Below, in pieces: positions 1 through 36,910 of a stretch of 38,258 bases of DNA. The stretch comes from Craspedostauros australis (Eukaryota). Where the stretch lies: positions 1-38,258 of the forward strand of contig JALAGF010003462.1 in assembly GCA_030167865.1 (NCBI GenBank). The letters are read 5' to 3'. The stretch's first letter is position 1; every line of letters starts with the position of its first letter. A program made the position numbers and the translations under genes. Below the pieces are notes generated by a model. It was not told the DNA's origin. It did no database searches and worked only from the letters and a program-made list of their open reading frames with translations.

Positions 1-7
1 CTCAAAG

Positions 8-2740: not shown

Positions 2741-3973
2741 ATGACAAGAGACGGAAAGAAGGAGGATCCAACGGTAATGCTTTCGACGCAGGCTGATGCT
2801 GACCACGACGCTGGCGCAACCGAGAAAATGCAAACCAAGCGAAGATCCAAACGGCTCGCATCTTCGTTGACGACATCGTTGACGTCCCCGTTCTTTTTCA
2901 AGAAGAACAACGACCGCGCTCCGAAGAAGAGTCGGCAGTCCGCATCGGCTGCTGAAGCTGGAACTGTGCAGAAGAAGAAGAATGCAGCTGTCAAGAAGTC
3001 GCCAAGGAAGCAGAGCGTTGTGCCCAAGACGAAATCCTTCGATGCAGTCGTTGCGAGCCGATTTGCCTCACTGAGAGACAAGAATATTCCCATTCACACA
3101 CTGATTCTGGGCACGCATCCCTCCGAAGCATCCTTGTCGGAACAGCAATACTACAAGCTCAACACCAAGTGAGTGTGTCACCTTCATGTTACGGAATGCG
3201 CGTATGGAGAGTTCGTTTCACGCAGCGTTCGAGCACTGTTTGGCGCCCTGCTCAAGTCGTTCCCTTCTCTCACATGTTTGTATCCAATGCATTGCAATGC
3301 AATGCAATGCAATCCAATGTACACACTGCATTCAATCCATATGCATCCTCGTTGTCCGCCTCACAGCGCGTTCTGGTGGATCGCCGGCGACTGCTTGGGA
3401 TTCCGCCGCGCACCAGGCTACATGGCAAACCAGAAGGACTTCCTGAATCTGACTCAACACTTGCGCCACGGGCTGGACAAGGTGATCCCCTACGAAGAAC
3501 AGCTCGAGATGCTGTGCTCGAAAGGCTTCGCCCTCTGGGATCTCGTGCACAGCTGCCGCCGCGTCGGATCATCGGACAGCAACATCCGCGACAGCGAACC
3601 CAACGATATCCGCAGCTTATGCCGCAAACATCCCACGATCCGACGCATCGTGCTGAGCAACGGCAGCGCGAGCGGAAAACTGTTTCGGCAATTGCATCGA
3701 GATTGGATCGCGACGGGCGAGGTCGTGGCGCATGCGAGTTCGCAGCGGTATTTTGGAAAGAAGACGGCGCCATCGCGGCGACGCATCGTTTGCATCGTCG
3801 CAGCTGCCGTGAGTCCGGCGGCCGCACGCATGACGTATGTGGAGAAGCGCGATTTTTGGGAAGAGCATGTCTACGGTCCTGGTTTGAAAGATTTTGAAGC
3901 AGCGAAGTTGGCGGCGGCGGTGGTGAAAGGAGGTGGTGATGTGGAAGGGGCGAGTGATGGTGGGAAGCGATGA
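2741..3973 (+). CDS. Uracil-DNA glycosylase superfamily protein, family 6 (hypoxanthine/deoxyinosine DNA glycosylase)-like, 2 exons: 2741-3168, 3367-3973
   Basis: Motifs TLILGTHPSEASLSEQQYY, NAFW (created by splicing AA|GTGAGT ... TCACAG|C, intron 3169-3366), GFALWDLVHSCRRVGSSDSNI..EPNDI..L...PTIRRIVLSNG and SPAAAR..Y.EK..FW. Basic N-terminal extension. Confidence 0.85.
3287..3316 (+). repeat. (TGCAA)n pentanucleotide microsatellite inside the glycosylase intron
   Basis: atgcattgcaatgcaatgcaatgcaatcca is seen directly; it supports the intronic, non-coding nature of 3169-3366. Confidence 0.75.
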
Positions 3974-6944: not shown

Positions 6945-9900
6945 TCAGTTAACTCGATGCAGATCGAAAACCTCCGTGAAGAATCCGAAACTGCTCTCGG
7001 ATGCCACCAGCAGACGCGTGCCCGCCGCGGACAGCTCCACCTTCGAACCAAACCGCTGTCCTTCTTGCGTGCCGTGCAGATCGTCCGTGATCTTGATCCA
7101 ATCCCAATCGCGGTACGCGTAGACCGACACCTTGCCGACGACGCCCGATTGCGTCGTGTATTCCGGCTCCCCGATGGCCACCGCGTCGCCGTCGAAGCTG
7201 ATGGAGGCACCGAAGGACGTCGTTCCCCACAGCCGGTTGCCCAGCTGCACCCAGCTCGTCACGTCCGTGTTCCATGCGTAAATGTCCAAGGGACCGCCCG
7301 AGATCAACGCGATGGCGATGCGCTGACCATCGCGTGACATGGCCATGTTGTACGATTCCAACACGTTGCCAAAGCAAACTTCGTCTTCGAATTCGATGTC
7401 AAACGGATCCTTCCTGTACGTATCGCCGTCGCGATTGTAGATGGAGACTTGGTTGCAGCCTCTGTCGTTCTGCACGCCCAGCGCGATCCTCGCACCGTCG
7501 GACGATATCGCGGCGCTGTTCAGAAACAACGATGGGGCGACGGAACCAGATGGGATGTCCTCTCCGATCTGGCGCACGGTGGAGTCACCGATCATGGTGT
7601 AGATGCGGAACACGGAGCTCGACGCTTGGGTGTCATCGAGGATCTTCATCACGAAGAACGGTTCCAAATCGGCGATGGTGACGTACTCGACGGTGGTCGT
7701 GGGCACGAGACCACCGAACGTCCACACGCGTTGCCACGCCTCGGGAGCGCCGGCTGTTGAGCAACACGCGTACAGATGAGCCACGCCGATGTTGGGACCG
7801 TTGGAATTGGCGTATCGTGGAAATCGCACGATGGCCCTCGACTGCGATTGGCGCGCGAAGTCGGCTTGCACGCCTGAAAAGTCGTACTGGCTGTTGCCGT
7901 AGTCGGGGCTCGAGTACAGGATGGCCGCTTCGGACAACGTCCAGCCGGAGTCGGAGTCTCGCAGGATGGAGGCGACCGGACGTCCCGGCTGGAAAAAGTT
8001 GTTGCCGATAGATCCGCTGCGCACTCGTGGGGCCAACAGCATTCGCTTCCCGTCCGCACTCAGAACGGCAGACCCGGGCATGGACGAGCCCGCCAACGAA
8101 TCGAAATCGCTGGAGGCTATCCTGGCCGAGGAAATCCACTCGTCCATGCCACTGGATACATCTGTATCGCTTAGGGTTGGAGATGGTGACAGTGATGTCC
8201 CCGGTGGCATTTGTGTTGGGTAGTTTGTGATGTCATCAGTCCGTGGTAGAAGAACGGTCTCGGTGATGTCAAAACAGCTGGACGTACCTGCGATTGCGTA
8301 GATATCATTGCAGACGTTTGTTGCGACGTTGTTTGAGCCTTCATTCAAAGACATATCCAACTTCAACGACTTGTCGGAACGGACGACAATTGCACCACCA
8401 AAGCGAGTAGCAGAATTGCTTTCGAATCGGCAATAGTGGACCTCCAATGAAAGCATGGTTCTGAATGATAACCCAAAGATGCCTCCGCCAGCAAGGGCGT
8501 CGTTGTGCCAGAAGGCAGACCCCACGATCTTTGCGATTAAAGGAGTTGCTTTGGTTGGCATGAAGACGTACAGCCCACCGCCGCCTTGAGCTGAATTGAA
8601 ATCAAACATCGAGTTGACAATGTCGACATGCGGCGTGTCTTCGATTGCCAGCCCACCACCGTGGATCGCCACACCTTCGGTGAACGAAGAGTTTTCGATG
8701 GTGACGCGGTCAGCGCCCTTGACGTGCACATTGCCGCCATTCTCGAACTGGCCAGCCGAACCTTTGTCAAACCAGCAGTTCCGTATCACGTGATGGCCAC
8801 TGGAGGTGATCAGCAGATTTCCACCGCCCGAGCTTTCTCTCTGGGACTCCGGGACCGATCCACCACCCAATACCATACCATCCATGACGAAATTGGATCC
8901 CTGCACTACGAATTGACGAAGGCCGCTGTTTCCTGAGAGGAGACATTCGCCAGGCTGGTGGCAACATATAGTGATGTTGTGTTGCCGGACTATGAGCGTG
9001 AGTGTGACGGGGAAGGAACCGCAGACAGAGATCGTGTCACCAGGTGCTGCGTCGTTGATCGCATTGGAGAGTTCCGTGAAGCCCACTGCACATTGCCCGC
9101 GCGTCGGTAGGCACGACAACTGTTCCAGCGAAGGGAAAGGGGAGGTGGTCGGCGCGGATGTTGGTGTTGATGTTCGTGTAGATGTTGGTGCGGAGGTTGG
9201 TGCAGGTGCTGGGGCGGTTGTTATGGCGCCTGGTGAAGCTATTGCAGGCACGAATGCCTGGCAATGGTTCGTGGGCCAAATATTCAGCTTCCCGTCCGTG
9301 CCATAATAGTAGTCATTCGCTGCCGGATAGTTGGCAGGGTTGATAAAGTCTGAGATGCCGACGTCGATGCTGATGCCGGATGATGGAAGGAAGGCTTCGC
9401 CCCAGCAGATCTGGATGGTGCCGTTCAAGAAGAGTTCGACGCGAAAGTTCGCGAAGAACTCTGGTTGCGGGGTGGATGACGTGGGTCGATCTTTCACACG
9501 CACATCTTCCCATGACACGACGATACTTTTCGGTCTGCCTGCACCGTAATTTTCTTGGAGGAAGATCGCGCCCCCGCTCGAAGGATCCAGATCCATGTAC
9601 GCCACGAGGATTTCACCGCAGTCCTCCTCAAACCCGTCGGCAATCGATCCGCAATGTCGAATGAGCACCCGCCCATTCGCGTCGACCCACGCAGTCTGGG
9701 CTTGTTGCATGCTGGATCCAACCCATTGAAGCCGCGGTTGTATCTCCACGAATTCTGCGCGATGAGTTGAGACAGCGGTTCACCGGTGGGTTCCAAAATG
9801 TTGCACCGTTGTGCGAGAAAACAAAATGTTAGTACCTAAAACAGCATAGAGTAGTTTGATATGTGCATGAGACAGTTGAACTTAACTGCAGATGCTCAAG

Positions 9901-12900
9901 CAAGGACTATCCAGTCGCCTGCAACCCATCGTGTCACGTCATCGTAGCCATCAAGATGGGCCTGGTGCGATGCACCGTGTACATAGTTGCGACATGCCAT
10001 TGCAACACATACATGCAGCACATAGATCATACGCTTGCACAAGCCTGCCCACCCGAAACACCCGCGCACTTACGGGAACAGTCGTCGCAGGCTGAGACCT
10101 GGGTGAGCATGCGTGTGTTGGGCTCGTTGCTAATCTTGCCGCGTGGAGTGGCGATCAGCGGACCGGGTCTGAATTCACGGTTGCCGACGAATGGTGTTGG
10201 GAATGGCGATGGGAATGGAGTTGGTGGTGATGCTCTTTGTCGTTTTTCGAAGAAGGTCTGGCACCGTTGGGATGGCCACGTCCCAGGGCTAGACCTTCCA
10301 TTTCGGTCGAACGGAAAGCCGATCGCGGGATAGCTTCCGAACTTTGGATCGTTTGGGAAAACCCCTGACTCGATGTAGACATTAGGTGGCGCGCTGCCTC
10401 TTCCCCAACAGAGAGCCACGGTTCCGTTGAGGAACAATCTTGCTTTGGCAGAAATGATGTGGCCTTCAGAGCCACGGGCAAGCTCCATGTCCTCCCACGA
10501 CACTTCCACGCCATCGGACATGAATCGAGACCAAATCTCGCCATTCTGCGCTCGTCTGAGCCAGTCGGACAGTGCCACGTAAATCGCGCCCTTCTCACCA
10601 CTGGTTGCTTCGACCTCAATTCGTCCATTGCTGAAGACTGTGATGCTGTCCACTGGATACTTTGTCAACCATGCGAAATTGCCAGGCAGTATCAGTTGTT
10701 CTGTGGGCATACGATGGGAGTAGTGGAACGGTTGATTGATTGGTAAGTGAGCGAGCGAGTGAATGAACATGTATCAATAGCGGAGCGAAACCAGAAAACC
10801 ACGATCGCAACATTCAAGAACCACACAAGCCAAGATCAAAACGAGACATTCGAAAATACGTGAGCCAAGCAACGGTCGAGAAATGTGCTTCGACTTACCC
10901 TGGCAAGAGTCGCAGTTCGACAATGTCCCCATGCGGACAGACTCAGGATACGTGCCCAGCGAGATGAATTGCGATGCATACATGTCTGATGTCACGAGAT
11001 CATCGTCAACCCAACCCGTTGGTGCATCCGTGTCAAACAAGCCGGTCGGTCTCAGCGAGGACGGTGATCGATCGCAGAGATGCGTCGAAGTAAACGTCCT
11101 GCATTGCCCAGAGGGCCACGTCCCGGCAAGAGTGGTGCCGTCCGACCGGAATGGATCCTTTCGAGGGAAGGTCTCGCCACATCCCGACGTCAGATCAGTC
11201 ACGGAGGTGCGGAAGGATGGGAAGTTGTCTGCGTTGACATTGTCGGCCCAACAGATGATGATGTCGCCAGTTTGGAACAGGTAGGCTTGCGCCGACACCA
11301 TCGGCAAAGCTTCGGGATGGTCCGCAAATCGCAACCCTTCCCACGAGATGATGTACATCGCCTCGGTTTGTGGATTTGCAGAGGGCAGCACAGTGCGGTC
11401 CAACACCCAGACGTCGCCGTCCGCCGTGGCGTCCAAGTTCGCTCCGACGACTTCAATGGTTCCACAGTCTCCAATGTTTGGGAGGCACTTGCGAACATCA
11501 AGTCTTCCGTCGACCAACACCAAAAATTCCTTGCTTGGGTACTGTCCCAACCATTTGAATTCCCCACCCAGCTTGAGCTCCTCGGTGCCTTCGTCTTGTG
11601 CCGAAAGGAATTCCAATCGAACTGCGCCGTTGGTGTTCGCAATGCTGGAATAGCTAGATCCGTTGGCATCGCCAGTATTGGAAAGCGTCATGAACTGGGT
11701 CGGCGACTGTGTCGGCGACTGTGTTGGTGCACTTGTCTTCTGTATGCTCATCTGATCAAAACGGTGGCACTGATTTGCGGGCCATGCCCCTGGTATGTTC
11801 TTTCCCGTGCTTTCGAAGGTCGTGCCATCTGCGGTTGCTGGGTAATATGTGAGGCCCATGGAACTGTACATGCCCGATGTGAATCTGACATCTGGGTCGA
11901 TGGATCCTTCACCCCAGCAGACATCGACGATGCCATCGCTGCAGATGGTGACCTGCGCATTCACTTTGGTTTGCGGACGGTCTTCGAAGGATATGTTCTC
12001 CCATGACACCACCACGCATTTCGTCGGTCGTTGCGATGCAACACCATTGTTGGACTCTTGATATGTGGACGACGATGTTGACGCAGATGTCGATGTTGAT
12101 ATCGACGTTGACGATGATGTCGATCCTGTTGACGTGGCGACATCACCGCCGCTTGCGCCTCTCTCGATTTCCAGCAGGAAGATGTTGCTGTCTGATCCTG
12201 AGATCTCGCTGTCAAGGCGACCCTGTACGACATGCACGTATCCCACGTTAGCACCCATGCTCACAAAGCCATCGGAGAAGATCCGAATGGTGTCGGTGGA
12301 ACGAACACTGGCGTCACCTTCCACCCCAGTCGCGAAAGAGAACGGCACGTCCAGATCGACGGACTGTGCGCAACTGCTGCATTCGCTGACATCGGAGAGC
12401 TTTTTAGAGCCAGGCTTGTCGTCGAGGGGCTCGAATTTCGTGCCGTATTCGATCGGCGCCTGTGTTGGAGTGAGAGTGAGGGCATCCGATGGCGGCGGTG
12501 TGCTTGATGGACTGTCGATGTCTCCTTTGTCGTTGCTGCCATCGTCGTTGCTGTTGCTGTCGCCATCAAGATTACCCGAGACGAGCAGCGCCACGATGAC
12601 TCCTTGCAGAATGAGAACGAGACAGAGCAGCACCCCGAACATGCGCACCAAGCGCCTGCGGCTCCACCGCGGTTCTGCCTCTGATCCAGCTGCATCATCG
12701 TCATCACCATTGGCGTCTTCCTGCAGCTGACCTTCTTCATCTTGCGACTGTGAGAACTCTCGCGTCGTTTGCTTCTGCGGTGACATGGGTGGCGGAAGAC
12801 TGGAAGCAGCGTCATCCGCGCTATCGGTATGCCGGATTTCTCGCACCTTGGGCCGCACATCGCCTTCATCGGGCGTTCCGATGGTCCTCTTGTGTCTAGC

Positions 12901-13110
12901 GTAGCCATCGGGCATAGCTTCGATGGCGTCGTCGTCGCTGGCGCGTCTCTTGACATCGCTGTCGTCGTCAATGTCGTCGCTGTCGTTGTTGCTGCCATCA
13001 AATTCGCGGCGGATGTCATCCATCGTCGGCGGAGGTGGGAAGATGCTGCCCAAATCAACACCCAGACTTCCCTCCGGGTCTTTGGCTTCTCCGTCATTGC
13101 GTGTTGTCAT
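6945..13110 (-). CDS. Large type II membrane / cell-surface protein (~1882 aa): acidic N-terminus, TM helix, 4 NIDO-like repeats, Pmp-like parallel beta-helix, C-terminal FG-GAP-like beta-propeller; 3 exons: 13110-10899, 10700-10074, 9754-6945
   Basis: Three same-strand ORFs join in frame through GT-AG introns 10898-10701 (CAGG|GTAAGT ... CCCACAG|AA) and 10073-9755 (TCCC|GTAAGT ... GCGCAG|AA); spliced length 5649 nt is divisible by 3. TM segment RRRLVRMFGVLLCLVLILQGVIVALLVSG; repeated V(V/I)SWE...LF..G.I.(I/L)CWG...G.WP...C..F blocks; GGG(L/I)/GGAI and FxxN repeats; (A/M)ISxDGxRIA(L/I) and FGxS(I/V) propeller blades; PT-rich linkers. Confidence 0.85.
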
Positions 13111-13813
13111 GGTGCTCGTCAATGCGTTGGTTGCCGCATCCACAGATGCAGTTGGTCGCAATCACAGCAGACTCTCTTCAGTGGATGATTGGTAAAGCGT
13201 ATTATGCGATCGCAGCAAAGATAAGAGCTATTATATGTGTGGCATGCCATGTCATGCCATCCAAAACGTGATCAATGCATCACCAGCACGGTCAGTGGCA
13301 TCAAGAAAGGCAGCGCCTTCCTCCATTGCGTGAGCATGGACTTGCGTGGCGCGCAATTCGAGATCAATCAAATCGCAACCATCACAACGCAACAACGTTG
13401 CGTGTGGACGCATTTTTTGGTTGCGATTTTTTGTTTGAAAGTTGTGTCGAGTCGAATGATTCGAACGCTCACATCGGATACACGACTAGAATTCATACAA
13501 GGCATGGCTCAATTCAACCGCGAAGAACATGATCGTTGTTCTCAGACGCATCAAGGCAACACACAGCCGCCAGCCAAAGAGGATGACTGTGGCCGATGCC
13601 TGTGTTGGCCAGATCATCTTCTTCCTTCCTTGCTTCTCTCATTCCGGCACATATATCTGTCGCCATTGTTGACGTCGAGACTGCCATCCAGCGATTGCAT
13701 CGTCGTCCTTGTCATCTCATCAGGAGCAGCGCAGAGGTGGTCACAATCGCAGTTGTTGCGACATCAGCGCAAGTATTGTACATTGATCAATCGAGAAGAA
13801 GCACGCAATCACG

Positions 13814-15591
13814 ATGAACGTGTACAGAGGACTCGGCGATCTGAGCCGCATGGTCGGGACCATCATCTTCTTCCTGATGGCTTGGAAGGGCAATACATCA
13901 GGTGAGAGCTGAGCTCTGCAATGAAACGCAATGTGCATTGTCTGGTGTTGGAATGCGGATGTGGCACAATGTTCGGCTCTTGTGGGGATCCTCACGTGGA
14001 CGCAACAGACAACATTCAACACGACTCTGCGATCAATGATCTCACATCTTGATCCTCTTGACATGCATGTACACATAATGCTCTTCTGCACATACGTTTA
14101 ATGCATGCATTTAATGCATACGAACAGCCATCTCAAGGAAGAGCCAGGAACTGTATCTGATGGTCTCAATCACCAGGTACTTGGATCTCTTCTACACTTT
14201 TTATTCGATGTACAATGCGCTGATGAAGATCCTGTACATTTCATTGGGCGCTGCGACCGTGGCGTGCCTGTACTTCAAAGAGCCAGGATGCTCGACGTAC
14301 AATGCCGCCCAAGATTCCGTTCAGCATTGGTTGCACATCGTCGTGCCATGTATTTTCATCGCCGTGGCGTACAAATCGCAGGATCCACGAGGATTCTATC
14401 CCCTGGAAGATACCACGGAATTGATGTGGACGTTCTCCGTCGTGTTGGAATCCGTCGCCATGCTGCCGCAGTTGCTCATGGTGAGACGAAGTTACCGAAA
14501 TGACCGCGAGCATCATGGTGGAGCGAGGGACGCCATCTACGTTCCGCTCTTCCTCTTCGGCATCTACCGATTCCTCTACGTGCTGAATTGGGCCTACCGG
14601 GCCATGACAGAGCCATTCTTTGCATTTTTGCATTCCTACATCAGATTGATCCTCACGGTGTCGGCCTTCATTCAGGTCCTCATGTACTCGGAGTTCTTTT
14701 ACATGTACGTGGTGCCAAGCAATTGGACGTTCGGGATCGCACAACGTGGTATTGTTGCTATTGTTGTGCTCTGATCTGTGCTGTGCTGTTGTACGAACAA
14801 TGCTCAATTTCATCTCGCTCCAATTTGCGCCAAGATGATTTTGAATGCAACCAACACAAACTCATTCATCCTCGTGCTCACTCTGTTGCGGTTATCCAAT
14901 AACACGACAATTTTGCTTGCGCATACGTGCATTCGTATGACATCATGAAACTATTCCATGCTACCTTGTGCACTCCAGAGTGTCACGCCCGCACTTGTGC
15001 CCAGCCAATGAGCCACCAGCGGGAACCGAATCGAGAGACGCGGGTCAAACTTCTGCGGAGGAGACTGACGCAGCTGTAGATGCGGAGGCAGGCGGCATGG
15101 CAGCCAGCGGAAAGCAGGGTGCGGTCGAAATGGTTGCGCGGCAGCAGGATCAACAACCTGCTACATCGATGGACAAAGCCGGAAACGAAGCTCCAATCTC
15201 GCGAGGTGGCGGATCTACGAGCACAGCGAACGCAAAGGCCCACAGAGCCACGACCGATGTGGAAGCAGGTCAGAAGAAGGTCCACAGCGGCGCACCGGTG
15301 AACACCGGTACCAGCATGGATAGCACCAGGACTGGAAAGGAGAGTCCACGACCGCCCATCGCCAGCAACAACAGTGGCAGCGCCGATGCGGAACAGCAGG
15401 ACGCAGCGCCGACAATGAACACTGTCGAAGCAACTGCGCCGCACACCACTGCCGGTGACGTGATTCAGCCTTTGATACGATCGCGAGGCACCGCGCCCCA
15501 AGATTCAGACGACGCCGAACGTGGCGACAACAATGGCACCGGCGGAGGAGGATCAGGATCGAGTGGATTCCTGTCCCTGTTTGGATTGTGA
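13814..15591 (+). CDS. ERD2: ER lumen protein-retaining (KDEL/HDEL) receptor homolog, copy 1, with long C-terminal tail; exons 13814-13901, 14128-14704, 14979-15591 (~425 aa)
   Basis: MNVYRGLGDLS start, ISRKSQELY..V..TRYLDLF, ELMWTFSVVLESVAMLPQL, GIYRFLYVLNWAYR, QVLMYSEFFY. Intron 1 is 13902-14127 (G|GTGAG ... AACAG|CC). Intron 2 is 14705-14978 (AT|GTACGT ... CTCCAG|A), in frame and conserved in position in copy 2. Without intron 2 the ORF would stop at 14774. Confidence 0.87.
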
Positions 15592-16116
15592 GCAACGGCT
15601 ACTGCTTGCTCTTCTATCGTTTTTCTCATGTGGGACTGCGAACAGTTGTGAAGTTCCTAACCAAGTCGTGTATTCTATTTTCATCCGCTACTACTGAGTC
15701 CGCAAATCCGCACCGGTCGCGTTTCGTGCGAATCCTCATTGAATCGATTGATTCGAAGGCCCACGTTGGGCAAACGACGAAAAATAAAGGGCCCAGATTG
15801 TACGATCCAATTCGAATCAAACATGAAGTCCGTTTTGTTCCGAAGCACGACACCAAAGTGCAAAGAAGACGCCACCAGTCCCTGCATTCGTAAAATCAAA
15901 ACAACCCGCTTGCCCCTCCACTCTTTGCGGCCCGTCTTTTGCGTTGTCATTGCTGATGTCGCAACTGCCATCAAGCTTGCATCATCGTCATTGCCATCTT
16001 ATCAGGAACAGTGCAAGTGCTCACGATCGCAATTGTTCCGGCGCCAGGGCAAGCGACATTGATCAATCCAAAAGAAGCAAAGCAAGGGAGCCATAACGAA
16101 ACCACACGCAACCACG

Positions 16117-17593
16117 ATGAACGTTTTCAAAGCACTCGCCGACTTGAGTCGCCTGGTCGGGACCGTCATCTTCTTCCTGATGGCATGGAAGGGCAATACA
16201 TCAGGTGAGAGCTGAGCTCTGCAATGCAACGCAATACCCGACGGACTACGTTGTACCTCTTGCGTACAATGGAATGTGGAGGAACACCGCACCACACCAG
16301 ACATCCCTGCTCCGCGCCTTGACAGAATCTTTGTGGTAGCGAAGCAGATGAGGATTTAACATGGCTCTGCACTCAATGATCTCACATCTCACTTCTCTTG
16401 ACGCGCACGTACGCACGAACGTACTCCTCGAATATTCCCTCTTGCACACGAGCAGCCATGTCAAGGAAGAGCCAGGAGCTGTACGTGCTGGTGGCAGTCA
16501 CCCGGTACTTGGATCTCTTCTCCAGCTTTTATTCGGTGTACATTTCATTCATGAAGATCGTGTACATCTCGTTGGGCGTTGCGACTGTGGCATGCCTGTA
16601 CTGCAAAGAGCCAGGATGCTCGGCGTACAATGCCGCCCAAGATTCGGTCCAGCATTGGTTGCACATCGCCCTGCCATGTTTCTTTCTGGCTTGGGCGTAC
16701 AAATCGCAAGATCCACGAGGATTCTATCTCCAATCAGACGTCACGGAATTGATGTGGACGTTCTCCGTCGTGTTGGAATCCGTCGCCATGCTGCCGCAGT
16801 TGCTCATGGTGAGACGAAGTTTCCAAAATGGACGAAAATATCATTGTGTAGTCAGGGATGCCATCTGCGTGCCGCTCTTCCTGTTCGGCATCTACCGATT
16901 CCTCTACTTGTTGAATTGGGGCTACCGAGCCATGACGGAGCCATCCTTTGCATTCATGCTTTCCCACACGAGGTTGGTCCTCACGGTGTCGGCCTTCGTT
17001 CAGGTCCTCATATACTCGGAGTTCTTTTACATGTAAGTTGTGCCATCCGATTGGTTGTCCGGGGTCAAGCGAAGTGCTGTCGTGGGGTGGCGTGGCGTGG
17101 CGTGGCGCGGCGTGTGGGCTTGTATGGGCTTGTATGGTGCCATACGTACCCTCTCGTACGTGTGTAGTGCTTGATTTCGTCTGGCTTCAATTTGCACGAA
17201 GATGATTTTGAACGCAACCAACACAAACTCAATCATCCTCGTTCTCACTCTGTCACCTCTATCGCTTGTGCCTGTGGGTTCCTCGTTCTCATCGACCAAC
17301 AACACCATCGTTCACCATCACAACCATTGTATTTGTGTGTGTACTCGTACCATGCAACTACTCCATGCCATCTTTTGCACACCAGAGTGTTGCGCCCGTA
17401 CTTGTGCCCGGCGCGGGCCGAATTGGCGAAGGCAGATCAAACTGGTGCTGAGGAGATTGGCGCAGGCGTGGATCCAGAGGTCGGTGGCGCGACAGTCAAC
17501 GGAACGCAGGATGTGGTCAAAACAATTGCGCAGCAGCAGCAACAACCAGCGACGTCGATGGAACCAACCGGCAACGAAGCTCCAAGATTGTAG
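16117..17593 (+). CDS. ERD2: ER lumen protein-retaining receptor homolog, copy 2, with truncated tail; exons 16117-16204, 16456-17032, 17386-17593 (~290 aa)
   Basis: Same motifs and identical exon 1 (88 nt) and exon 2 (577 nt) lengths as copy 1. Donors G|GTGAG (16205) and AT|GTAAGT (17033); acceptors AGCAG (16455) and ACCAG (17385). TAG at 17591-17593, with homology to the copy 1 tail continuing out of frame. Confidence 0.85.
17085..17112 (+). repeat. (GTGGC)n pentanucleotide microsatellite in intron 2 of ERD2 copy 2
   Basis: gggtggcgtggcgtggcgtggcgcggcg is seen directly and is absent from the copy 1 intron. Confidence 0.7.
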
Positions 17594-17960
17594 CTCGTCA
17601 GGCAGCGGGTACTTGGTGAACGCAATGGCCCATGGAGCCACGACTGATGTGGAAGCAGGTCAGGAGAAGTTCGACAGGGGTGTACGTATCGGTGAACGCT
17701 GGTACGGGCGACGGATAACACCAGGACTGGAAAGGACAATCCACGACGACGCAACGCCACCAACATCAGCGACAGCACGCCCAAGAACAACAGCAGGTCG
17801 CAGCACCAGTGATGGACACGAACGAAGCAACTTCGCCACACACGACTGCCGGTGATGTGGTTCAGCCTTTGATACGATCCATTTCGCCTGCGCCCCAAGA
17901 CGCACACGACGCGGAACGTGACGACAATGACATGCGGACGGAGGGAATCGGGTTCGAGCA
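17594..17960 (+). pseudogene. Decayed, frameshifted remnant of the ERD2 C-terminal tail coding sequence
   Basis: Peptides homologous to the copy 1 tail occur in different frames after the stop: NAMAHGATTDVEAGQEK (copy 1 NAKAHRATTDVEAGQKK) and EATSPHTTAGDVVQPLIRS...PQDAHDAERDDN (copy 1 EATAPHTTAGDVIQPLIRS...PQDSDDAERGDN). Confidence 0.7.
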
Positions 17961-20118
17961 AATTCCTCTTCATGCTCCGAGTGTGACAGTCGTCCCCAGG
18001 TCGAGTTGTGAAAATCCGCGAGCGCCTGTTCTCAGGTCGTCAAATACGAGTACCCATACGCTACGTACATACGCGAGCTAATACATATTATGCACGAACA
18101 ATTGCTCTACCCTCCAGATTATTCTCTGCTCCTCTATCCTCGTTTGCGAGGTCTGCGCAGAGATTCAAGTTGTGATCAAGTTGGTCATTGGACCACAACA
18201 GATTCGATCGATGGAGTCAACGATTCACACACAAAACACGACTGATTGTCGTAAATGCCAAAATGTGTTGCCTGTCTCCACATGACGCGGTGCACGAAGT
18301 CACGAATCAATGTCACGTGCGAACATGTGGTGAGCAATGGAGAACCTTGGACAACATCACAAGTACCCGCAGCGACAACGGCAAAACCAACGAGGAATGT
18401 GCAAGGAACAGAACGCAGCGAAACTGCGTGAAGACGAAGGAAGTGGAAGACTGGAGACAAGTTGCGTGATGTGCAACAATTATCGCCGTGGACAGTGTGG
18501 AAGTAATTGTAAGCATTCGCGTGGATGATGTGACCATCATGTCCATCATGCGGTACAGTGGTGAAGCGGCTGTGTTCTTCATCGGCCGGGATGTTGGTTG
18601 GCGAGGTCGATCTGTTAAGCGGTTGCTGTATCATCGTTTGCGGCTGGAATGTTGGTTTGCAATAGATGTTGGGATGGATGACTGCTGTAGGATTGTGGTG
18701 CCTTGTCTTGTGATGAATGTTGTTGCATTGTTGTGTTGTCTGTCATGTTTTGGTGTCGTGCATTGCGCATCTTGGGCTTTTGTGCGTTCCGATGTGTGTT
18801 CATCCGGTCATTGCGGAGAACAACCAAGACCGATTGGGGCTGTGTCACGCCTGTGATGTGCACGACACATGAAGATACAGTTTGCATAAGTATTGCATAA
18901 AATGTCCGATCCTTTCACGGTTTGTCACTGGGAGCGTTTAGGGGAACGTGGGTCGTTGTGGAAGATATTGCGATCCCAGCGGACCGGTACCCAGCCAACA
19001 TCCGCAACAACACCCGCAACAACGCTCGCACACCGGATTCCACATCACAAACCAGAACGAACCCTCCACGCAAAACCAGAACAACACATCAAAACCACCG
19101 AAAAAGGGAAGCCAGACACAACGGGGAACAACGACGGAGGTGGTTGCGAAAGTGGCAGCCAAACGCCAAAGCGAAAACCGCGGGAAATTCTGACCCACGC
19201 GACGCGCGCACATGGTCAAGCGAAGGAATGATGGAAGGTCATCGTTGTCCAGAGATGGATGGATAGATAGAGACCAAGAGAGAGAGAGAAGACCAACAGA
19301 GACAACATCAAAGACAGTGCAAGAGGCTATTGGGGGTGTCATTGATGGGAATGATTTAATCAGCATTCGAGGCATTGATTGCTCGCACACATGTATGCAT
19401 TGCATGTTGCTTGGGACATCAGCATCATTCCATTCGCTGGTTCGACTTACATCTATTGTCGCATCTATTGTCCCATCCATTGGTGCTGACACCGAACGCC
19501 AGACAACCGATCGATCGCAGCCCAAGGAGACCAAGCCAAGTGCACTCGAGACCAAGCCGAGACAGGTCTGACCACCGAGGTACAAGAGCGAAAACGGGGA
19601 AAGATCCAAGTAGTCTGCGGAAGAACCGAAAGCATCCAAAAGCGGAGCAACCGGCGAAAAGCGAGAGGGAAGTGAGAGGAAGAAGAAGTGACAGCTGCGA
19701 AAGGTGAAAGGCGAAAGGGACGCAGCATACTGAGCCACAACCGACGAGCAGTCAGCTTCCGCCCTCGCAACCGCCAGTCATCATCAACTTTGGCGTCATC
19801 AGTTGATCTATCGACCAGAACAGAAGCCAAGAAGGCATCGGCTCCGAGCAAGCAAAGCGCTCAAACTGAGCAAGGAAGTTCCCCGAGAACCGTGTCGTAC
19901 CACCTCACATCCCTCCCTTGACGTACTCCATACCAACGAGCCACAATACATATTGCTCGCAGCAAAAGAGCGCATCGCCGCGCGCCTACGTACTAATGCT
20001 CCAGAGGCGTATGGCACCGAAGGCACATCTCACTGCATTGAATTGAACTGAATAAATCACCAGACGCCCAGACACGGCAGGCCAGACATTTGTTCATCCC
20101 ATTCGTCTCATCGCCGCG

Positions 20119-22548: not shown

Positions 22549-23847
22549 TCAATCAAATACGGCCATTCCAAGCTCTCCCCACCAATCTTCCGGACGGAAG
22601 AATCGATACCCGCGATCCAGCTTCGAGATCCTGCCAATCTCCGCATCGGTCAATCGGATGCTCGTGTCAGCATTCGCAACGCTCAAATTCTCGGCCTGTC
22701 GTTGCGCCGATGCGCTCTTCACAACGACAGACGTGCCGCGTTGGATGGCCCATGCGAGGCAGACCACAGCGGCGGAGGCATTGTGCGATGCTGCGATGGA
22801 TCGCAAGACTGGGTCATGCAGCACCATGGGCTCTTCGCTCTCCTTGAATCCAGGTGTCCCCAATGGCGAATACGCTTGGAAATGGACGCCTCGTTTTTGG
22901 CAGTACCTCAGCAGCTTGGTTTGCTGCAGGTACGGATGCGCCTCGACCTGATTGACGGCGGGCGGGATGATGCACCGCGTCATGAGCTCATGCAGCAAGG
23001 AGACGCTGAAGTTGGAGACGCCAATTTGCTTCACCAAACCTCTGTGCACCAGCTGCTCCATGGCATGCCACGTCTCATGGATTGAGACGGTGGCGTCGAT
23101 TTTGCGGCCGTCGTCGGAGTCGTCGATATCCTCGTTGGCATATCCGCGCTGTGTGAGATCGATGTCGACGTATTCAAATGCCGGTGGCCAATGGATGAGG
23201 AAAAGGTCCAGGTACTCGAGCCGCAAATCATTCAGAGTCTTGCGCAGCGCCAGTTCCACATGCTCCTTGCGATGGAATGGACTTGCCAATTTGGAAACGA
23301 CGTACAGATCCTCGCGGTCAATAGAATTCTCACTGTCTTTTTTCGTGTTCGAGTTTGTGTTTGCATGTGCGGTGGTGGATATGGACGTAGACATCGACGT
23401 CGCGTGCGGTGATGATGCTGACGATGTCAGTATCTGCTGGAAGGCATCGCCAATCTTGTCTTCGTTGAAGTAGACAGGTGCGCAATCAATCCTGCGGTAG
23501 CCGACGGAAATGGCAGATTGAATTGCCCCAACCGCCTGATCTGGCGGCAAGCCGTAAGTCCCAAGACCAACTGGGTAGTGTTGCAGCATGCTGTCGCTGT
23601 TACAGTTGCTGGCGGTCGCGGCACCACCTGCGATGTATTGGTTTGACTCCAAGGTGGTGCACGTCCCCTCCGCAGACCCGTCACTTGGTTCGTCGCCGTG
23701 ATGGCTGCCAGATGCTGCAGCACACCAACGCAAGGTCGAGCCGGGGATGTGACTTCTGGACGGCAATATGAGACACGTGCTCGCGACGAGTGCAGCTTTC
23801 GACCAGAGCCTCCTTCTGACCGGGATCAGCATCGATGGACGGAACAT
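22549..23847 (-). CDS. Aldo-keto reductase with N-terminal targeting-like extension
   Basis: PVGLGTY, GYRRIDCAPVYFNE (catalytic Asp/Tyr), VVSKL (Lys), LEYLDLFLIHWP (His), GLVKQIGVSNF, NQVEAHPYLQQ, AYSPLG, VVVKS...R..ENL. Arg/Ser-rich N-terminus lacking acidic residues suggests organellar import. Confidence 0.95.
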   Translation of the reverse strand: MFRPSMLIPVRRRLWSKAALVASTCLILPSRSHIPGSTLRWCAAASGSHHGDEPSDGSAEGTCTTLESNQYIAGGAATASNCNSDSMLQHYPVGLGTYGLPPDQAVGAIQSAISVGYRRIDCAPVYFNEDKIGDAFQQILTSSASSPHATSMSTSISTTAHANTNSNTKKDSENSIDREDLYVVSKLASPFHRKEHVELALRKTLNDLRLEYLDLFLIHWPPAFEYVDIDLTQRGYANEDIDDSDDGRKIDATVSIHETWHAMEQLVHRGLVKQIGVSNFSVSLLHELMTRCIIPPAVNQVEAHPYLQQTKLLRYCQKRGVHFQAYSPLGTPGFKESEEPMVLHDPVLRSIAASHNASAAVVCLAWAIQRGTSVVVKSASAQRQAENLSVANADTSIRLTDAEIGRISKLDRGYRFFRPEDWWGELGMAVFD

Positions 23848-24191
23848 GCAGTGTTGGTTCTACTCTTTGCGCGTGATGTGCGGTGATGGTATCTTGTGTG
23901 GGTTTGGGTGCGATGTTGTTTGTGTCAAGAGAGAGGAAGAGAGAGGAATGATGTGTCACAAAAGAATCAAAAGATACGTTTTTGGTTATTGAGGAGTTGC
24001 GGCAATTCAGAAAAAGAGGATAGTTTCGAGCAACGAGAACTGACACCCAACTTGTACCAAAACGCGCCTCTCACCTTGCTTGTAAATCGTACTCCGATTG
24101 CATCTCTAGCTCGTACGACTACACAAGCAGTCCACAGTCATCGCATTGCATCATATAGTAGGTCACACGCGCACGTGTACAACAGTACCGG

Positions 24192-25367
24192 CTATTCTAT
24201 CTTTTCCAATACCGCGGAATTCATGTAGTTTTGCCATATCGGGCTGCATTGTTTCGGCTGCGTGTTGAGGCCATTGCGCCAGTGATGGACGAGGACATCG
24301 ACGGAAGACAGCGGATTGCCCCAGTGGGTCTCGGACTTGGCCATGATCAGTATCTCCACCAAGAAGTTGCTCACCGAACTCGTGTTAAAGTGAATGGGGA
24401 AGGTATTGTCGAGCTCCGGGGCTTGGCGGTCGGTGAACAGGACGACCTTCAGATTGGAGGGATTGTCGATCATGGTGTAGTTCATGTTGCAGGCATCGAC
24501 TCTGTCGGCAACCGTGCACGTGGGCGTTGTCAGGCAAGAACTTTGCTCCTTGGAGATGGGAGCTGCGCACGTCGCCCACTTGATGCACTTGTCATCCAGA
24601 TTCCTCCTGTGCACCGAGATGAAATTGCGCCCATACTCCCAAGCATCGACGTATCTATCTGCTTCTTCCTGGAAGATCTTCTTGGGGAGCAGGGTTGCCA
24701 GGTACGGCGCGAAGTCGACATGCATGTAGAAAACGCCTCTGCCTCGGAATCTGCGGAAGCAAGACGTATGCGGATCATTGTAGAGGAATCCCTCTCTGTC
24801 ATCGAAGTGCTCACGGAACCAATCGGTCCACCCCTTATCCAATGCGATGGATCGCACATTCCGATTTTCGGCACGCACCGCCAACAGTCTGGCCAGAGTG
24901 AGCACTCGGTTGCTGTGCTGACCAGAAAAGCTGGAGAGACAGTAGGACTTCCATGGTTGCCTGGCGGATTTGCGTTGCTGAAGGCGCATCTTTGACGATA
25001 TCGGCCGGGGCCTTGGCTTCGACGTGTGATTTGACTGCGGCTGGATCGGCGGCGACGCTGCCTGCGTTTTCACGGCGGGATCCAACCGCACGGAGGCAGC
25101 GACGCTCGTGGAAGACCGTTGATCACTGTTTTCGACCACATGCCGAGCCTCATGCCGAGCCTCATGCCCAGCCTCGAGCTCTTCTATGATATGCGGCGCC
25201 AGAATCGACCCATTGTGACTATCTTGCGGTGACTTGCCGAAGAGACTCATGAGCCTCGCTTGGGAGATCAGTGAGAAGCAAACAAGCGCCGCGAATGCCA
25301 GCCATTGGGATAGTTGCTTGTGTTGGTGCTCGCGTCCATTCTGTCTATTGCTGGGATGCGTCTGCAT
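24192..25367 (-). CDS. Type II membrane glycosyltransferase-like protein (GT-B, GDP-fucose fucosyltransferase-like)
   Basis: Short N-terminus, TM segment WLAFAALVCFSLIS, stem, then GQHSNRVLTL, FISVHRR (HxR motif I), VVLFTD (motif II) and EILIMAKSETHWGNPLSSV (motif III-like), as in alpha-1,2 / alpha-1,6 / O-fucosyltransferases. Confidence 0.7.
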   Translation of the reverse strand: MQTHPSNRQNGREHQHKQLSQWLAFAALVCFSLISQARLMSLFGKSPQDSHNGSILAPHIIEELEAGHEARHEARHVVENSDQRSSTSVAASVRLDPAVKTQAASPPIQPQSNHTSKPRPRPISSKMRLQQRKSARQPWKSYCLSSFSGQHSNRVLTLARLLAVRAENRNVRSIALDKGWTDWFREHFDDREGFLYNDPHTSCFRRFRGRGVFYMHVDFAPYLATLLPKKIFQEEADRYVDAWEYGRNFISVHRRNLDDKCIKWATCAAPISKEQSSCLTTPTCTVADRVDACNMNYTMIDNPSNLKVVLFTDRQAPELDNTFPIHFNTSSVSNFLVEILIMAKSETHWGNPLSSVDVLVHHWRNGLNTQPKQCSPIWQNYMNSAVLEKIE

Positions 25368-25852
25368 CCTTTTCGACGATTGTGTATGTGTGGTCGGTCA
25401 ACGCGAGTTGTCTATTGTACTTCGTCCAAGTGATGGCGTTTGCGCTCGTGCGAGGTGTGGTATTGACTGTCGTTGGTGTTGTTTCTTTGTGTTGGTTTGG
25501 TGTTGCGTTTTGCGTTTTCTGTTGGGTTCTCAGCACGAGTGCGGAGATGTCATTTTTTATCGCCAAACGTCATTTCGTGACAACGAAGTGAAACAATTCT
25601 GAGACAGACAATTGCAGCGAAATATGCAATAGAAAATTATCAAAGAAGTACCTGTATCAATAAGTAGGTTAGCTTGCATGGTAAATTACAACAAGCAGAA
25701 ACATGACATCGCAGAATAGTGTAGTTTATCGGCGTCGACGTCTGTCAATACACACGACGTATCGTCATAACAGGATCTTGTGAGATGAGCGGCGACACTC
25801 ATACGTCGCATCAAACGAACAACGCACACAAACCAGAGCGGACAAGATGCTG

Positions 25853-26407: not shown

Positions 26408-27942
26408 AAGAAGCATACAAACAATGAGATTGTGTCAATGCCATTGATGACAGACCCCAAGAAGGTCTGCGCTATGAAGATCTGTGCGGACTTCGGCTTT
26501 CATTGCCACGTTACCAACAGTGCAATATTGCTGGTACTCAATTTATCCAAGATGATTCTCAGAACCATTAAACATGGTGTTTGTGAAGAATCGGCAAGCG
26601 CATTTGCCGACTATGGTCTCATCATGACCATCACGGGAGACCAAGCCATGGGGCAGCGTTGTGCGGATATTGCATTCGCAATCCTAGCCAGAACCAATGG
26701 GATGTCAAAGAGAGGACTTGTTTCCATTCTCGTGAACGAATACGTCTCAACGTTCAGCGCCCCATTCCTGCAGCTGCTCCGACAATGCCAACAAGGTCAT
26801 CATGACTCCATGGAGGTTGGAGAGCTTGAGGTGGGACTCTTGTGCTTCCACTTCTGTCTTGGATTGACGTTGGTTATTTGCTTTGAGCTGGGGCAACTGA
26901 TTGAAGCAACACGTGTAATCCTTCAACTGCACATCACATACGAAGTCTTCTCCCACGTAGAAATGGCGAAGGAATTTCTGCTCACGCTGAAGTGGTTGAC
27001 CAGAGACGAGCCGGTCCCATGGCAACAACTTGAGGCTGAGGCCAAGCGAGGTATCAACGAGGACTCATTGGATCCAGCCCAAGCTGGACGAGACTTGGTT
27101 CACTTCTTCGGCCGGGTGTACCTTTCAATCCACCATCGGCAGTTTCGCGATCGCGGAACGCTTGTACGAGTGCTTCCACGTTTTCTCTTCAAAGTCTCCC
27201 TCGTATTTCAACTTGATGATGACAGCATACTTTTCAGGCTTGATCTCTGCAGGAAGATACAAGGAGACCGGAAGCCGTCGCTACCTAACAACCCTGCGCA
27301 AATCCATCAAAGCGCTACGCCATCTCGGTAAGACCAGGGGACGAAATTGGATCCACCAGGCATTTCTGCTCGAAGCAGAGGAGCTCTCCATCACCATCAA
27401 GAACAAGTGTCATGCCAACATACAGTACGCGTACAGCCTAGCGATAATCTCCGCCGCTCAATCCACGTGCATCAACGACACAGCTCTTTCATACGAACTC
27501 GCAGGAGAGCACTTCGCTCGACATGGCGCAGCAGACATGGTCGGCGATCACTTCGATAACGCAGTCGAGCACTACACAGCCTGGGGATTGCAAGATCAAG
27601 GTGGATGACATCAAGCAGCGTCGCGGGAAGTTCGTGACCACGATGTATGATGATGGTAGATCGAATTCCAAGTTGGCGGCCTGGAGCCAACGCAACCAGA
27701 CCATCGCAGAGCTGTTTGGCATTGTGTCACCAACGAGCCTCGCAGGGTTTGAGATCGCGTCACGGCCATATCCAAGCGGAGCGCATACCAGAAATAGCGC
27801 TCGAGACGGCACTCAAGGTCGTACACACACATCACCTTCGAAATCGAACAATGATAGGAAGGCGGAACACAGTGGCCGCGACAACGGCAGCGAAGACGGC
27901 GGTGGTGACAATGTATCAGTGTTGACAGACAACTCGGATTGA
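26408..27942 (+). pseudogene. 5'-truncated, doubly frameshifted fragment of the helical C-terminal region of an AAA-ATPase / multi-sensor kinase-type (MalT/STAND-like) protein
   Basis: Recognisable segments MPLMTDPKKVCAMKI, KMILRTIKHGVCEESASAFADYGL, HQAFLLEAE, AYSLAIISA...NDTALSYELAGEHF and AVEHYTAWG.KIKV, spread over three frames. Single extra bases near 27143-27145 and 27587-27589 connect the frames. In-frame TAG at 26405-26407 and no Walker A upstream. Confidence 0.7.
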
Positions 27943-28346: not shown

Positions 28347-28373
28347 ACATGCTGGCGCTTCATGGATTGATCC
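28347..28373 (+). repeat. 27-bp exact direct repeat, copy 2, overlapping the last codons, stop and start of the 3' UTR of the P450
   Basis: Identical to 25853-25879. Confidence 0.9.
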
Positions 28374-32054: not shown

Positions 32055-33418
32055 ATGAGATCGATGACTGGTATCCGCCCATTGGCCATCGTCGCATGGT
32101 GCTGCGTTGCATCATCGACACGTGCCTTCGTGAGGAGTACCTGTCTCTCTCGACCAGGGTTGTCGGCAGAGACGCAGACACGAACGAAACCGGCAGTTGT
32201 CAAAGATACGCGATGGCCTCGCTCTGCGGCATCCTTGGGCAAGACGAGCCTCAACTTGATCCCGCTGGCGTCTGTTGACGAGTTCGATACCACGTTCTTC
32301 GCATCTCCGTTTGACGCACAAGGGACTCTCATTGATGATGACAGCAATGGCGGCGATGCCGATGCAAATGCTTGCAACCTGCAATACACGCTGTCCATCG
32401 TCGAAGAACAGGATCTGCCAGATCTTTCGCGGTTCATCGTTTCGTGCTTCGGCGCTGACATAATCCGCCTCAGTGACAACATGCCGAATCCCGAGCGGTT
32501 CCTGCTCTCGCCCGTGGTGGGTCTGCTCAATGCATACAGCTCCTTCTTGGCATTTGTCGAAGTGCTGAGCGGTGCCAGGCAGCGCACATCACGGCGCATG
32601 CAGCGCGAGAACGCGATCGCTTCACCGTCGGCAGCAGTCGATGGCGCCACATGCTCCGTCGAGGAAGCTTCGCAGGATTCATTGATTCTGGTCTTGGGAC
32701 GATCGAAAGCGGGCAGCGATTCGCAGACGGACATCATCGCAACGATCGAGCTTGGGTTGCAGGTGAGTGCGAAAGCGGATGTTGCGTTTGTTCGTTCGTT
32801 TGTTCGTTTGTGACGCAGTTCGATCCTCTCAGCTTGATGATCACGCTTCGACTGATTTGGACCTCACATTCCCACGAGCCACCACTCTGCCTTCACTCTC
32901 AACTTGCAAATGAACACGAATTGAATACGCAACATCCCCACACGAGTCCGTCCTTCCCATTTCAGCCTTGCGATGCCAAGATTCCGTTCACGTTGCCATG
33001 GCTGGACGTGCTGGAACGCCGCTTGGCATCATTCCTGGCAGCTGAAAAACGAAACAATCTCCATGGCAAAAAGGAGAACGCGAGCAATCTGCAACCGTAC
33101 CTCAGCAATCTGTGCGTCTCCGACGAATACCGAGGCAAGCGCATCGGGAGGGCGCTGGTGCAATGTGTGGAGTACATTGCGTCCGACATCTGGTCGCACG
33201 ATACCATGTACTTGCATGTCGATGAAGAGAACGCCCCCGCTCTTGGGTTGTACGTGAGTGAAGGCTACGAAGCTGCAGTTGGCAAACGATGGAATCCGAT
33301 TTGGGCCGGTGGTGTTTCCAAGGTTGGATACTACGGCAAGAAGTTGGCGGCTGACGGGCACACCAAGATGATGGGCAGAACGAGAACGAGAACAACTGCG
33401 GAGCGAAAGGCGTCGTAG
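32055..33418 (+). CDS. GNAT-family N-acetyltransferase with bipartite plastid-targeting presequence; exons 32055-32762, 32966-33418 (~386 aa)
   Basis: Signal peptide ending STRA|FVR (ASAFAP-like) followed by a Ser/Thr/Arg-rich transit region. Intron 32763-32965 (CAG|GTGAGT ... TTTCAG|CCT, phase 0). PYLSNLCVSDEYRGKRIGRALV (acetyl-CoA motif A) and MYLHVDEENAPALGLYVSEGY (motif B). Confidence 0.9.
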
Positions 33419-36893: not shown

Positions 36894-36910
36894 GGTGGTG
36901 ATTGTTCTGA

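What the first reader, a model, noticed from the sequence alone, without database searches (positions are those of the whole stretch)
13814..17593. Tandem divergent KDEL receptors with the pH-sensor His replaced by Arg and altered retrieval signals
Seen: both copies read DLSR (GDLSRMV, ADLSRLV) where canonical ERD2/KDELR has GDLSH, and both read YSEFFY in place of Y(C/A)DFFY. No Lys cluster follows TM7 in either predicted splice form. Equivalents of ligand-pocket residues R47 (RYLDL), E117/W120 (ELMW), E127 (LESV), Y158/R159/Y162 (YRFLY) and N165/W166/R169 (NW.YR) are kept; R5 is Arg in copy 1 and Lys in copy 2. Known: in vertebrate KDELR2, His12 protonation is the pH switch, Asp193 is needed for retrograde transport, and C-terminal lysines form the COPI signal. 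Inference: a permanently charged residue at position 12 plus loss of the COPI motif suggests a pH-independent or re-routed receptor sub-family, possibly serving a diatom-specific compartment rather than Golgi-to-ER retrieval.
Basis: partly seen in the sequence, partly recalled or inferred. Interest (0 to 1): 0.72.

Follow-up and report, generated by a model that had tools for sequence, protein, structure and literature searches.

The report
Diatom KDEL receptors lacking pH-sensor histidine
Two neighbouring, spliced gene copies encode extra versions of the receptor that retrieves escaped ER proteins, keeping the cargo pocket but swapping the acid-sensing histidine for arginine, a swap that has happened repeatedly among such extra copies and offers a natural test of how the receptor senses pH.

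Summary
Two tandem three-exon ERD2/KDELR genes (PF00810) have Arg at His12, Glu at Asp193 and no lysine cluster; all four introns appear as spliced joints in one RNA-like run. The genome also has a canonical ERD2 (His12, Asp193, Lys cluster, LxLP), so these are extra copies. H12R does not mark a sub-family: the pair sits among His12 relatives in a wider, apparently diatom, set of long-tailed ERD2 paralogues, where loss of the Lys/LxLP tail is general. Residue 12 changed 10 times on my tree, 7 times to Arg/Lys (monophyly rejected), while 124 of 126 pocket positions were kept. D193E is conservative. Best reading (0.42): pocket-intact, non-recycling receptors in which a fixed positive charge stands in for protonated His12. 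Relaxed duplicates are a real rival (dN/dS 0.44, long stem, copy-2 tail truncated). Binding, pH dependence and location are untested.

The parts
13814..13901 (+). Copy 1 exon 1 (TM1; R5, D9, R12)
   Evidence: splice joint
13847..13849 (+). Copy 1 codon 12, CGC = Arg at the His12 position
13902..14127 (+). Copy 1 intron 1, 226 bp, GT..AG, phase 1; same position as intron 1 of the genome's canonical ERD2
14128..14704 (+). Copy 1 exon 2 (TM2-TM7, PF00810, ligand pocket, E193)
14414..14493 (+). 80-bp run over TM5 identical to 16742-16821 (probable gene conversion)
   Evidence: codon-shuffle p 0.0005
14705..14978 (+). Copy 1 intron 2, 274 bp; retained in some transcripts (244-aa form, stop ending at 14777)
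14979..15591 (+). Copy 1 exon 3: about 200-aa hydrophilic, acidic cytosolic tail, no Lys cluster, no LxLP, one QPLI motif
16117..16204 (+). Copy 2 exon 1 (TM1; K5, D9, R12)
16150..16152 (+). Copy 2 codon 12, CGC = Arg
16205..16455 (+). Copy 2 intron 1, 251 bp
16456..17032 (+). Copy 2 exon 2 (TM2-TM7, PF00810)
17033..17385 (+). Copy 2 intron 2, 353 bp
17386..17593 (+). Copy 2 exon 3: tail cut to about 68 aa by a TAG
   Evidence: P0002 carries this tail
17594..17990 (+). Frameshifted remnant of the rest of the tail, still alignable to copy 1 exon 3 (includes the QPLI motif); transcribed as 3' UTR

Best explanation
The two genes are a recent tandem duplicate of an extra, long-tailed ERD2/KDELR paralogue of a diatom, not the housekeeping retrieval receptor. 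Shown: gene structure, splicing, KDELR fold, intact pocket residues, Arg12, absence of the Lys/LxLP tail, a canonical ERD2 elsewhere, and repeated independent His12 to Arg/Lys changes among paralogues. Inferred: the protein still binds a C-terminal xDEL-like signal; the always-charged Arg12 stands in for protonated His12 plus its bridging waters, so capture is no longer switched by luminal pH; lacking both proposed trafficking signals, it does not run the Golgi-to-ER cycle but holds or sorts cargo at a station set by its long cytosolic tail.
For: Pocket positions kept in 124 of 126 cells across 9 Arg/Lys12 sequences whose non-pocket identity to the canonical ERD2 is only 0.41. On a 75-row tree built without column 12, the residue changes 10 times: 7 to Arg/Lys, 3 to Asn/Gln, none to a hydrophobic residue. 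Counting only hits of the two searches whose query lacked residue 12, and leaving the window out, 5 of 7 events are basic (binomial P 0.005-0.043 for my assumed expectation of 0.20-0.33). Copies under purifying selection, dN/dS 0.44, 95% interval 0.28-0.72, and spliced. Model pLDDT 84, TM 0.69-0.74 to KDELR2 structures. Papers tie binding to the protonated, charged state of His12 (passages of PMC7547670, PMC7617889). The same genome holds two pocket-degenerate paralogues (L005, L006), so keeping the pocket is not automatic.
Against: No binding, pH or localisation data. Arg is much larger than His and position 12 is at the base of the pocket, so it may block it; H12A abolishes binding (PMC7547670). 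A preference for basic residues could simply serve the buried Asp9. dN/dS 0.44 is weak constraint, the stem branch is long (0.92) and copy 2's tail is truncated. His12 paralogues keep the pocket nearly as well (454 of 474) and are the majority, so Arg12 is not needed for whatever the paralogues do. Most non-His sequences are single metagenome records; P0289 looks chimeric. The tail has no strict [DE]xxxL[LI] or YxxPhi motif.
Confidence: 0.42

Rival explanations
1. Redundant duplicates under relaxed selection: Arg12 (one A-to-G transition from a His codon) weakens or kills binding, it is tolerated because the canonical ERD2 does the job, and the copies are drifting towards the pocket-dead state of L005/L006.
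For: dN/dS 0.44 and a long stem; frameshifted, truncated tail and R5K in copy 2; frequent intron-2 retention; Arg/Lys12 branches are mostly terminal with His12 sisters, such as P0232/P0308.
Against: All 14 scored pocket positions survive a stem of 0.92 changes per site (R5K in copy 2 counted as kept); the interval of dN/dS excludes 1; no Tyr, Leu, Pro or Asp at 12 among 10 events; P0244/P0320 exchange Arg and Lys without leaving the basic class.
Confidence: 0.25
2. Still a pH-sensitive xDEL receptor: the proton is sensed by Asp9 and the Glu127-Tyr158 pair, Arg12 only shifts the set point, and the real novelty is the tail and hence the location.
For: D9, E127 and Y158 are kept; PMC7617889 (passages) reports that the proton may sit on Asp9 and calls Asp9 the sensor of luminal pH in a relay with His12; most long-tailed paralogues keep His12 (37 of 49 parsed long-tail rows).
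Against: In that model the relay needs a His12 that can give up its proton, which Arg cannot at luminal pH (established chemistry).
Confidence: 0.22
3. Changed job on the PQ-loop scaffold: a different ligand or a transporter/sensor role, with the arginines kept for some other carboxylate.
For: TM7 and the luminal loops are divergent and carry insertions; the family is PQ-loop derived (PMC7561476, passages); cystinosin and SWEET are the next fold matches.
Against: Every xDEL-contacting residue, including E117 and W120 that read position -4, is kept; the fold match to transporters is far weaker (E above 0.02 against 1e-10) and no better than for a canonical control.
Confidence: 0.11

Closest known systems
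ERD2 / KDEL receptor (PF00810; chicken KDELR2, PDB 6I6H, 6Y7V)
   Same: 7-TM fold (TM 0.69-0.74 over the query), 37-38% identity, D9, R47/Y48, D50, E117/W120, E127, Y158/R159/Y162, N165/W166/R169; R5 in copy 1
   Different: His12 is Arg, Asp193 is Glu, R5 is Lys in copy 2; no Lys cluster and no LxLP; tail of 68-200 aa; insertions in the TM4-5, TM5-6 and TM6-7 loops
Canonical diatom ERD2 (L001 in this genome; P0261, P0263, P0274)
   Same: Same intron-1 position; 46% identity over exon 2
   Different: The canonical copy keeps His12, Asp193, three Lys after TM7 and an LQLP end
Long-tailed divergent ERD2 paralogues (P0004-P0013, P0114, P0115, P0193; named members elsewhere in the set are from Fragilaria, Thalassiosira, Helicotheca)
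   Same: Starred 19-row clade (100/98); long acidic tails in full-length members, pocket kept; a one-residue shorter first loop and a TM5-6 insertion shared with the P0011/P0012 group
   Different: Most keep His12; many have lost Asp193 (Ser, Gln, Gly, Val); no paper describing them was found
ERD2-related proteins (ERP type, with extra N-terminal membrane segment; label from PMC10954686 and recall)
   Same: PF00810 members said not to act in ER retention
   Different: The window's genes start at TM1 like ERD2 and group with ERD2; the genome's ERP-like gene is a separate locus (L003)

Membership tests
PF00810 ERD2/KDELR family | Profile score over the curated cut-off | tested here: met
   119.6 and 107.1 bits, cut-off 25.6
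PF00810 ERD2/KDELR family | Seven-helix PQ-loop-type fold of KDELR | tested here: met
   AF2 pLDDT 84; the 8 Foldseek matches with E<=0.001 are all KDELR2
Canonical ERD2 retrieval receptor | Pocket residues R5, R47, Y48, E117, W120, R159, Y162, W166, R169 and the E127-Y158 pair | tested here: met
   all present; R5 is Lys in copy 2
Canonical ERD2 retrieval receptor | His12 pH sensor | tested here: not met
   Arg (CGC) in both copies
Canonical ERD2 retrieval receptor | Asp193 | tested here: inconclusive
   Glu; acidic charge kept. D193N blocks retrograde transport (PMC6888596, passages); the effect of Glu is unknown
Canonical ERD2 retrieval receptor | Lys cluster after TM7 (K201/204/206) | tested here: not met
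   0 Lys in the first 15 tail residues of all three forms checked
Canonical ERD2 retrieval receptor | C-terminal LxLP di-leucine Golgi signal on a short free tail | tested here: not met
   tails of 204 and 69 aa ending in other residues; motif from PMC10036638
Canonical ERD2 retrieval receptor | Orthology to the organism's ERD2 | tested here: not met
   L001 groups with canonical diatom ERD2; the copies fall in a separate starred clade
Canonical ERD2 retrieval receptor | pH-dependent xDEL binding; erd2 complementation; Golgi-ER cycling | not testable with these tools
   needs binding, complementation and imaging experiments
An 'Arg12 sub-family' | Arg12 sequences form one clade | tested here: not met
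   AU test, 6 Arg12 rows against 69: lnL 494 lower, p-AU 1e-81; the group was defined by residue 12, whose column was left out of the tree

The most novel reading that the evidence does not exclude
Diatoms carry an undescribed radiation of KDEL-receptor paralogues with new cytosolic sorting tails, and several lineages, this tandem pair among them, independently replaced the pH-switch His with a fixed positive charge to make pH-independent, non-recycling xDEL receptors that hold or route luminal proteins in a compartment outside the Golgi-ER cycle (for example the plastid-surrounding ER or a post-Golgi/silica-deposition compartment).
Probability: 0.2. Interest if true: 0.8.

Novelty: new variant of a known kind. 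Interest (0 to 1): 0.5.

Why it matters
His12, Glu127 and Tyr158 are described as strictly conserved and His12 as the pH switch of the KDEL receptor (PMC7547670). Natural, expressed, pocket-intact Arg12 and Lys12 receptors with close His12 sisters are ready-made pairs for asking whether charge alone, or the His-water network, locks the ligand, and whether release needs His12 or Asp9. The tail-swapped paralogues also bear on the dispute over whether ERD2 recycles or stays in the Golgi, and point to unstudied sorting routes in diatoms. If they are only drifting duplicates, the finding is modest.

Tried and rejected
(1) The AF2 model of the 244-aa copy-1 form is closer to peptide-bound KDELR2 (rmsd 2.6-3.0, TMq 0.74) than to apo/nanobody forms (3.6-3.8, 0.69-0.70), but a canonical His12 control folded on the same other 28 rows leans the same way (TMq 0.81-0.83 against 0.76-0.78), so this is not evidence of a locked state. 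(2) H12R as clade marker: rejected. (3) Sequencing error or pseudogene: both copies read CGC, the run-X1 contigs show no other letters, and the membrane core has no stop. (4) Ligand preference from position 54: the genome's BiP-like gene ends DGEL and another HSP70-family gene EDEL, and its canonical ERD2 has Arg54 while the copies have Thr/Ser, but most other canonical diatom ERD2s also have Thr/Ser, so nothing follows. (5) Strict di-leucine or tyrosine sorting motifs in the window's tails: none. (6) The Fisher table had a mistyped cell and is not used. (7) look-up of sequencing runs listed no holder on record as RNA; X1 is a guess. (8) No complex prediction was run: a receptor-peptide pair would pass by likeness to solved structures. 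(9) search of earlier findings gave nothing relevant. (10) Neighbouring genes (unknown repeat-domain proteins, aldo-keto reductase, two P450s, GNAT) give no functional link.

Full report
Anatomy. The window holds two same-strand copies about 2.3 kb apart, 72% alike at DNA level over about 2 kb, including a similar 5' flank. Each has three exons: copy 1 at 13814-13901, 14128-14704, 14979-15591 (425 aa) and copy 2 at 16117-16204, 16456-17032, 17386-17593 (290 aa). Contigs of run X1 skip exactly these four introns; X1 is only guessed to be RNA, is one study, and may share its source with the window, so it shows splicing but is not independent support. Pieces that retain intron 2 exist for both copies. 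Transcript-derived database proteins agree: P0001 is the 244-aa intron-retained form of copy 1, and P0002 and P0003 are copy1/copy2 chimeras joined in an 80-bp run that is identical in both genes (codon-shuffle p 0.0005, probable gene conversion). Copy 2's tail stops early, and the DNA after its stop still aligns to copy 1's tail with frameshifts.

The residues. Exon 2 scores 119.6 and 107.1 bits on PF00810. The N-terminus aligns without a gap to chicken KDELR2, which puts the Arg of DLSR at His12. Fourteen pocket positions are kept, with R5K in copy 2; position 193 is Glu; no Lys lies in the first 15 residues after TM7. An AF2 model (pLDDT 84) matches only KDELR2 structures at E<=0.001.

The genome. 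A PF00810 search gave 6 matches from 6 candidates (a lower bound): the two window genes, a canonical ERD2 with His12, Asp193, a Lys cluster and an LQLP end (L001), an ERP-like gene (L003), and two very divergent paralogues on one contig (L005, L006) that have lost Asp9 and much of the pocket, L005 with Lys at the position that counts as 12 (read by eye from translations). The essential retrieval function is therefore covered elsewhere. The canonical copy is sister to an Epithemia protein (100/80), which is my basis for calling the organism a diatom.

Relatives. Two searches with exon 2 alone and one with a profile of 29 divergent sequences (120 of 314 hits listed) gave 336 proteins. In the first two sets, 137 of 252 rows had an aligned N-terminus with Asp9; 8 lacked His12 (Arg 4, Lys 1, Asn 2, Gln 1). 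In the full set, 190 of 336 had a parsable TM1 motif: His 173, Arg 6 (two are the window's), Asn 4 (two from one cluster), Lys 3, Gln 1, and 3 mis-parses. With a canonical short tail, 63 of 65 are His (one Lys in a chimeric-looking record, one mis-parse); with tails over 30 aa, 37 of 49 are His (this class includes some mis-predicted non-diatom genes). So H12R is absent from canonical ERD2s in this sample but recurs among long-tailed paralogues. I built an IQ-TREE tree of 75 hand-picked rows (all 13 non-His12 rows except a cluster duplicate and the mis-parses, 45 His12 rows, 10 without N-terminus, 7 outgroups), with column 12 removed (a 204-row FastTree gave the same picture). The pair lies on a long stem (0.92) inside a starred 19-row clade (100/98) whose other readable members are His (7), Arg (1, P0193, sister to a His12 protein) and Asn (1). 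Its exact sister is unresolved (84/38). The fewest changes at residue 12 are 10: 7 to Arg/Lys and 3 to Asn/Gln. Holding the six Arg12 rows together is rejected (p-AU 1e-81). None of the other 17 members of that clade carries an organism name in the outputs I saw; named members of the wider set are diatoms (Fragilaria P0232 and P0308, Thalassiosira P0298, Helicotheca P0038), so 'diatom radiation' is an inference from few labels.

Selection. Between the copies, the membrane core has dS 0.27, dN 0.12, dN/dS 0.44 (bootstrap 0.28-0.72): constrained but loosely. Across nine Arg/Lys12 sequences 124 of 126 pocket cells are kept (K5 and D117 counted as kept) while non-pocket identity to the canonical ERD2 is 0.41; His12 divergent paralogues keep 454 of 474, Asn/Gln12 52 of 56, canonical 154 of 154. 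D/E193 is kept in only 5 of 9 basic-12 and 16 of 34 His12 divergent rows, so trafficking features decay across the whole set whatever residue 12 is. Of 36 long paralogues, 16 carry a PLL-type motif in the tail and 11 end in VV, hinting at a shared new sorting signal; copy 1 has only a QPLI. The excess of basic replacements (5 of 7 unbiased events; P 0.005-0.043 under my assumed codon-neighbour expectation) is suggestive only: small numbers, single records, and a buried Asp9 may favour a counter-charge anyway.

Mechanism. From passages of PMC7547670, PMC7617889 and PMC7561476: protonated His12 strengthens the Glu127-Tyr158 short hydrogen bond and holds two waters that bridge to the ligand's carboxylate; H12A abolishes binding; Asp9 relays the proton; K201/204/206 are exposed on binding as a proposed COPI signal. 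PMC10036638 (passages) finds the lysines dispensable and an LxLP motif essential; PMC10954686 (passages) disputes this. PMC6888596 (passages) describes D193N as Golgi-retained after binding. PMC8248988 (passages) gives the pocket contacts. The window's proteins lack both candidate tail signals. The simplest functional reading is a receptor that still binds xDEL-like ends, with Arg12 as a fixed charge, and does not cycle (0.42). Rivals: relaxed duplicates (0.25), pH sensing through Asp9 (0.22), a changed ligand or role (0.11). No step of binding, pH response or location was tested. The model's lean towards the bound conformation is shared by a canonical control and carries no weight.

Literature. 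Searches for diatom + ERD2 + KDEL (1 paper), diatom + 'ER lumen protein retaining' + receptor, diatom + 'KDEL receptor' (13 papers, 11 listed), ERD2 paralogue evolution (27 papers, 20 listed) and H12R/H12K variants (3 crystallography papers) showed, at the level of listings and abstract starts, no description of these paralogues or of a basic-12 receptor; PMC10903960 (passages) covers divergent kinetoplastid receptors, not His12. The library lacks most subscription papers, including the original structural and mutagenesis papers, and I read no supplements, where alignments with such sequences could stand.

Verdict. A real and correctly described variant; a new variant of a known kind. The sub-family claim fails, but the broader pattern, repeated His12 to Arg/Lys change with the pocket intact among extra long-tailed ERD2 copies, is more interesting than the single case and directly testable. 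Interest 0.5.

Noticed in passing
window 14414-14493 and 16742-16821: 80-bp run identical in both copies over TM5 against 86% CDS identity overall; probable gene conversion, and the join point of two chimeric database proteins (P0002, P0003).
   Followed up: partly
window 14979-16771: One contig of run X1 runs from copy 1 exon 3 across the intergenic DNA into spliced copy 2; read-through or overlapping UTRs, which a contig cannot tell apart.
   Followed up: no
L005 and L006 (G000:C4863, about 8 kb apart): Two further ERD2 paralogues with the same intron-1 position but Asp9 and much of the pocket lost, long tails with extra hydrophobic segments; L005 appears to have Lys at position 12.
   Followed up: partly
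P0120, P0133, P0158, P0031, P0061, P0169, P0298 and other long-tailed relatives: Tails often carry an acidic PLL-type motif (16 of 36) and end in VV/IV (14 of 36), resembling vacuolar di-leucine signals (resemblance recalled, not tested).
   Followed up: partly
P0232 and P0308 (Fragilaria crotonensis, both listed with a 93,784-base contig): Closely related paralogues differing at position 12 (Arg against His): a natural test pair.
   Followed up: partly
L009 and L015 (G000:C4837, C679): HSP70-family genes ending in DGEL and EDEL, i.e. acidic -4 ER signals; the canonical ERD2 here has Arg54, the type of change linked to ADEL/DDEL recognition in PMC8248988.
   Followed up: partly
window 6945-13161, minus strand: Long ORFs (944, 248, 795 aa) sharing a repeated domain with SWE..CWG-like motifs and no Pfam hit; the 795-aa one has a single membrane segment near its start; possibly one or more surface proteins.
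   Followed up: no
window 28360-29961 and 35442-37016, minus strand: Two cytochrome P450 genes (PF00067), apparently paralogues.
   Followed up: no
window 2-1516 (+), 22549-23859 (-), 32477-33418 (+): DUF6824 protein with two domains, an aldo/keto reductase, and a GNAT acetyltransferase exon.
   Followed up: no
window 26408-27608 (+): Two overlapping ORFs in different frames that look like one helical-repeat protein split by a frameshift or short intron; no Pfam hit for the first.
   Followed up: no
window 3173-3973 (+) and 24192-25397 (-): ORFs recalling a mismatch-specific uracil-DNA glycosylase and a glycosyltransferase (labels from recall; no Pfam hit at 1e-3).
   Followed up: no
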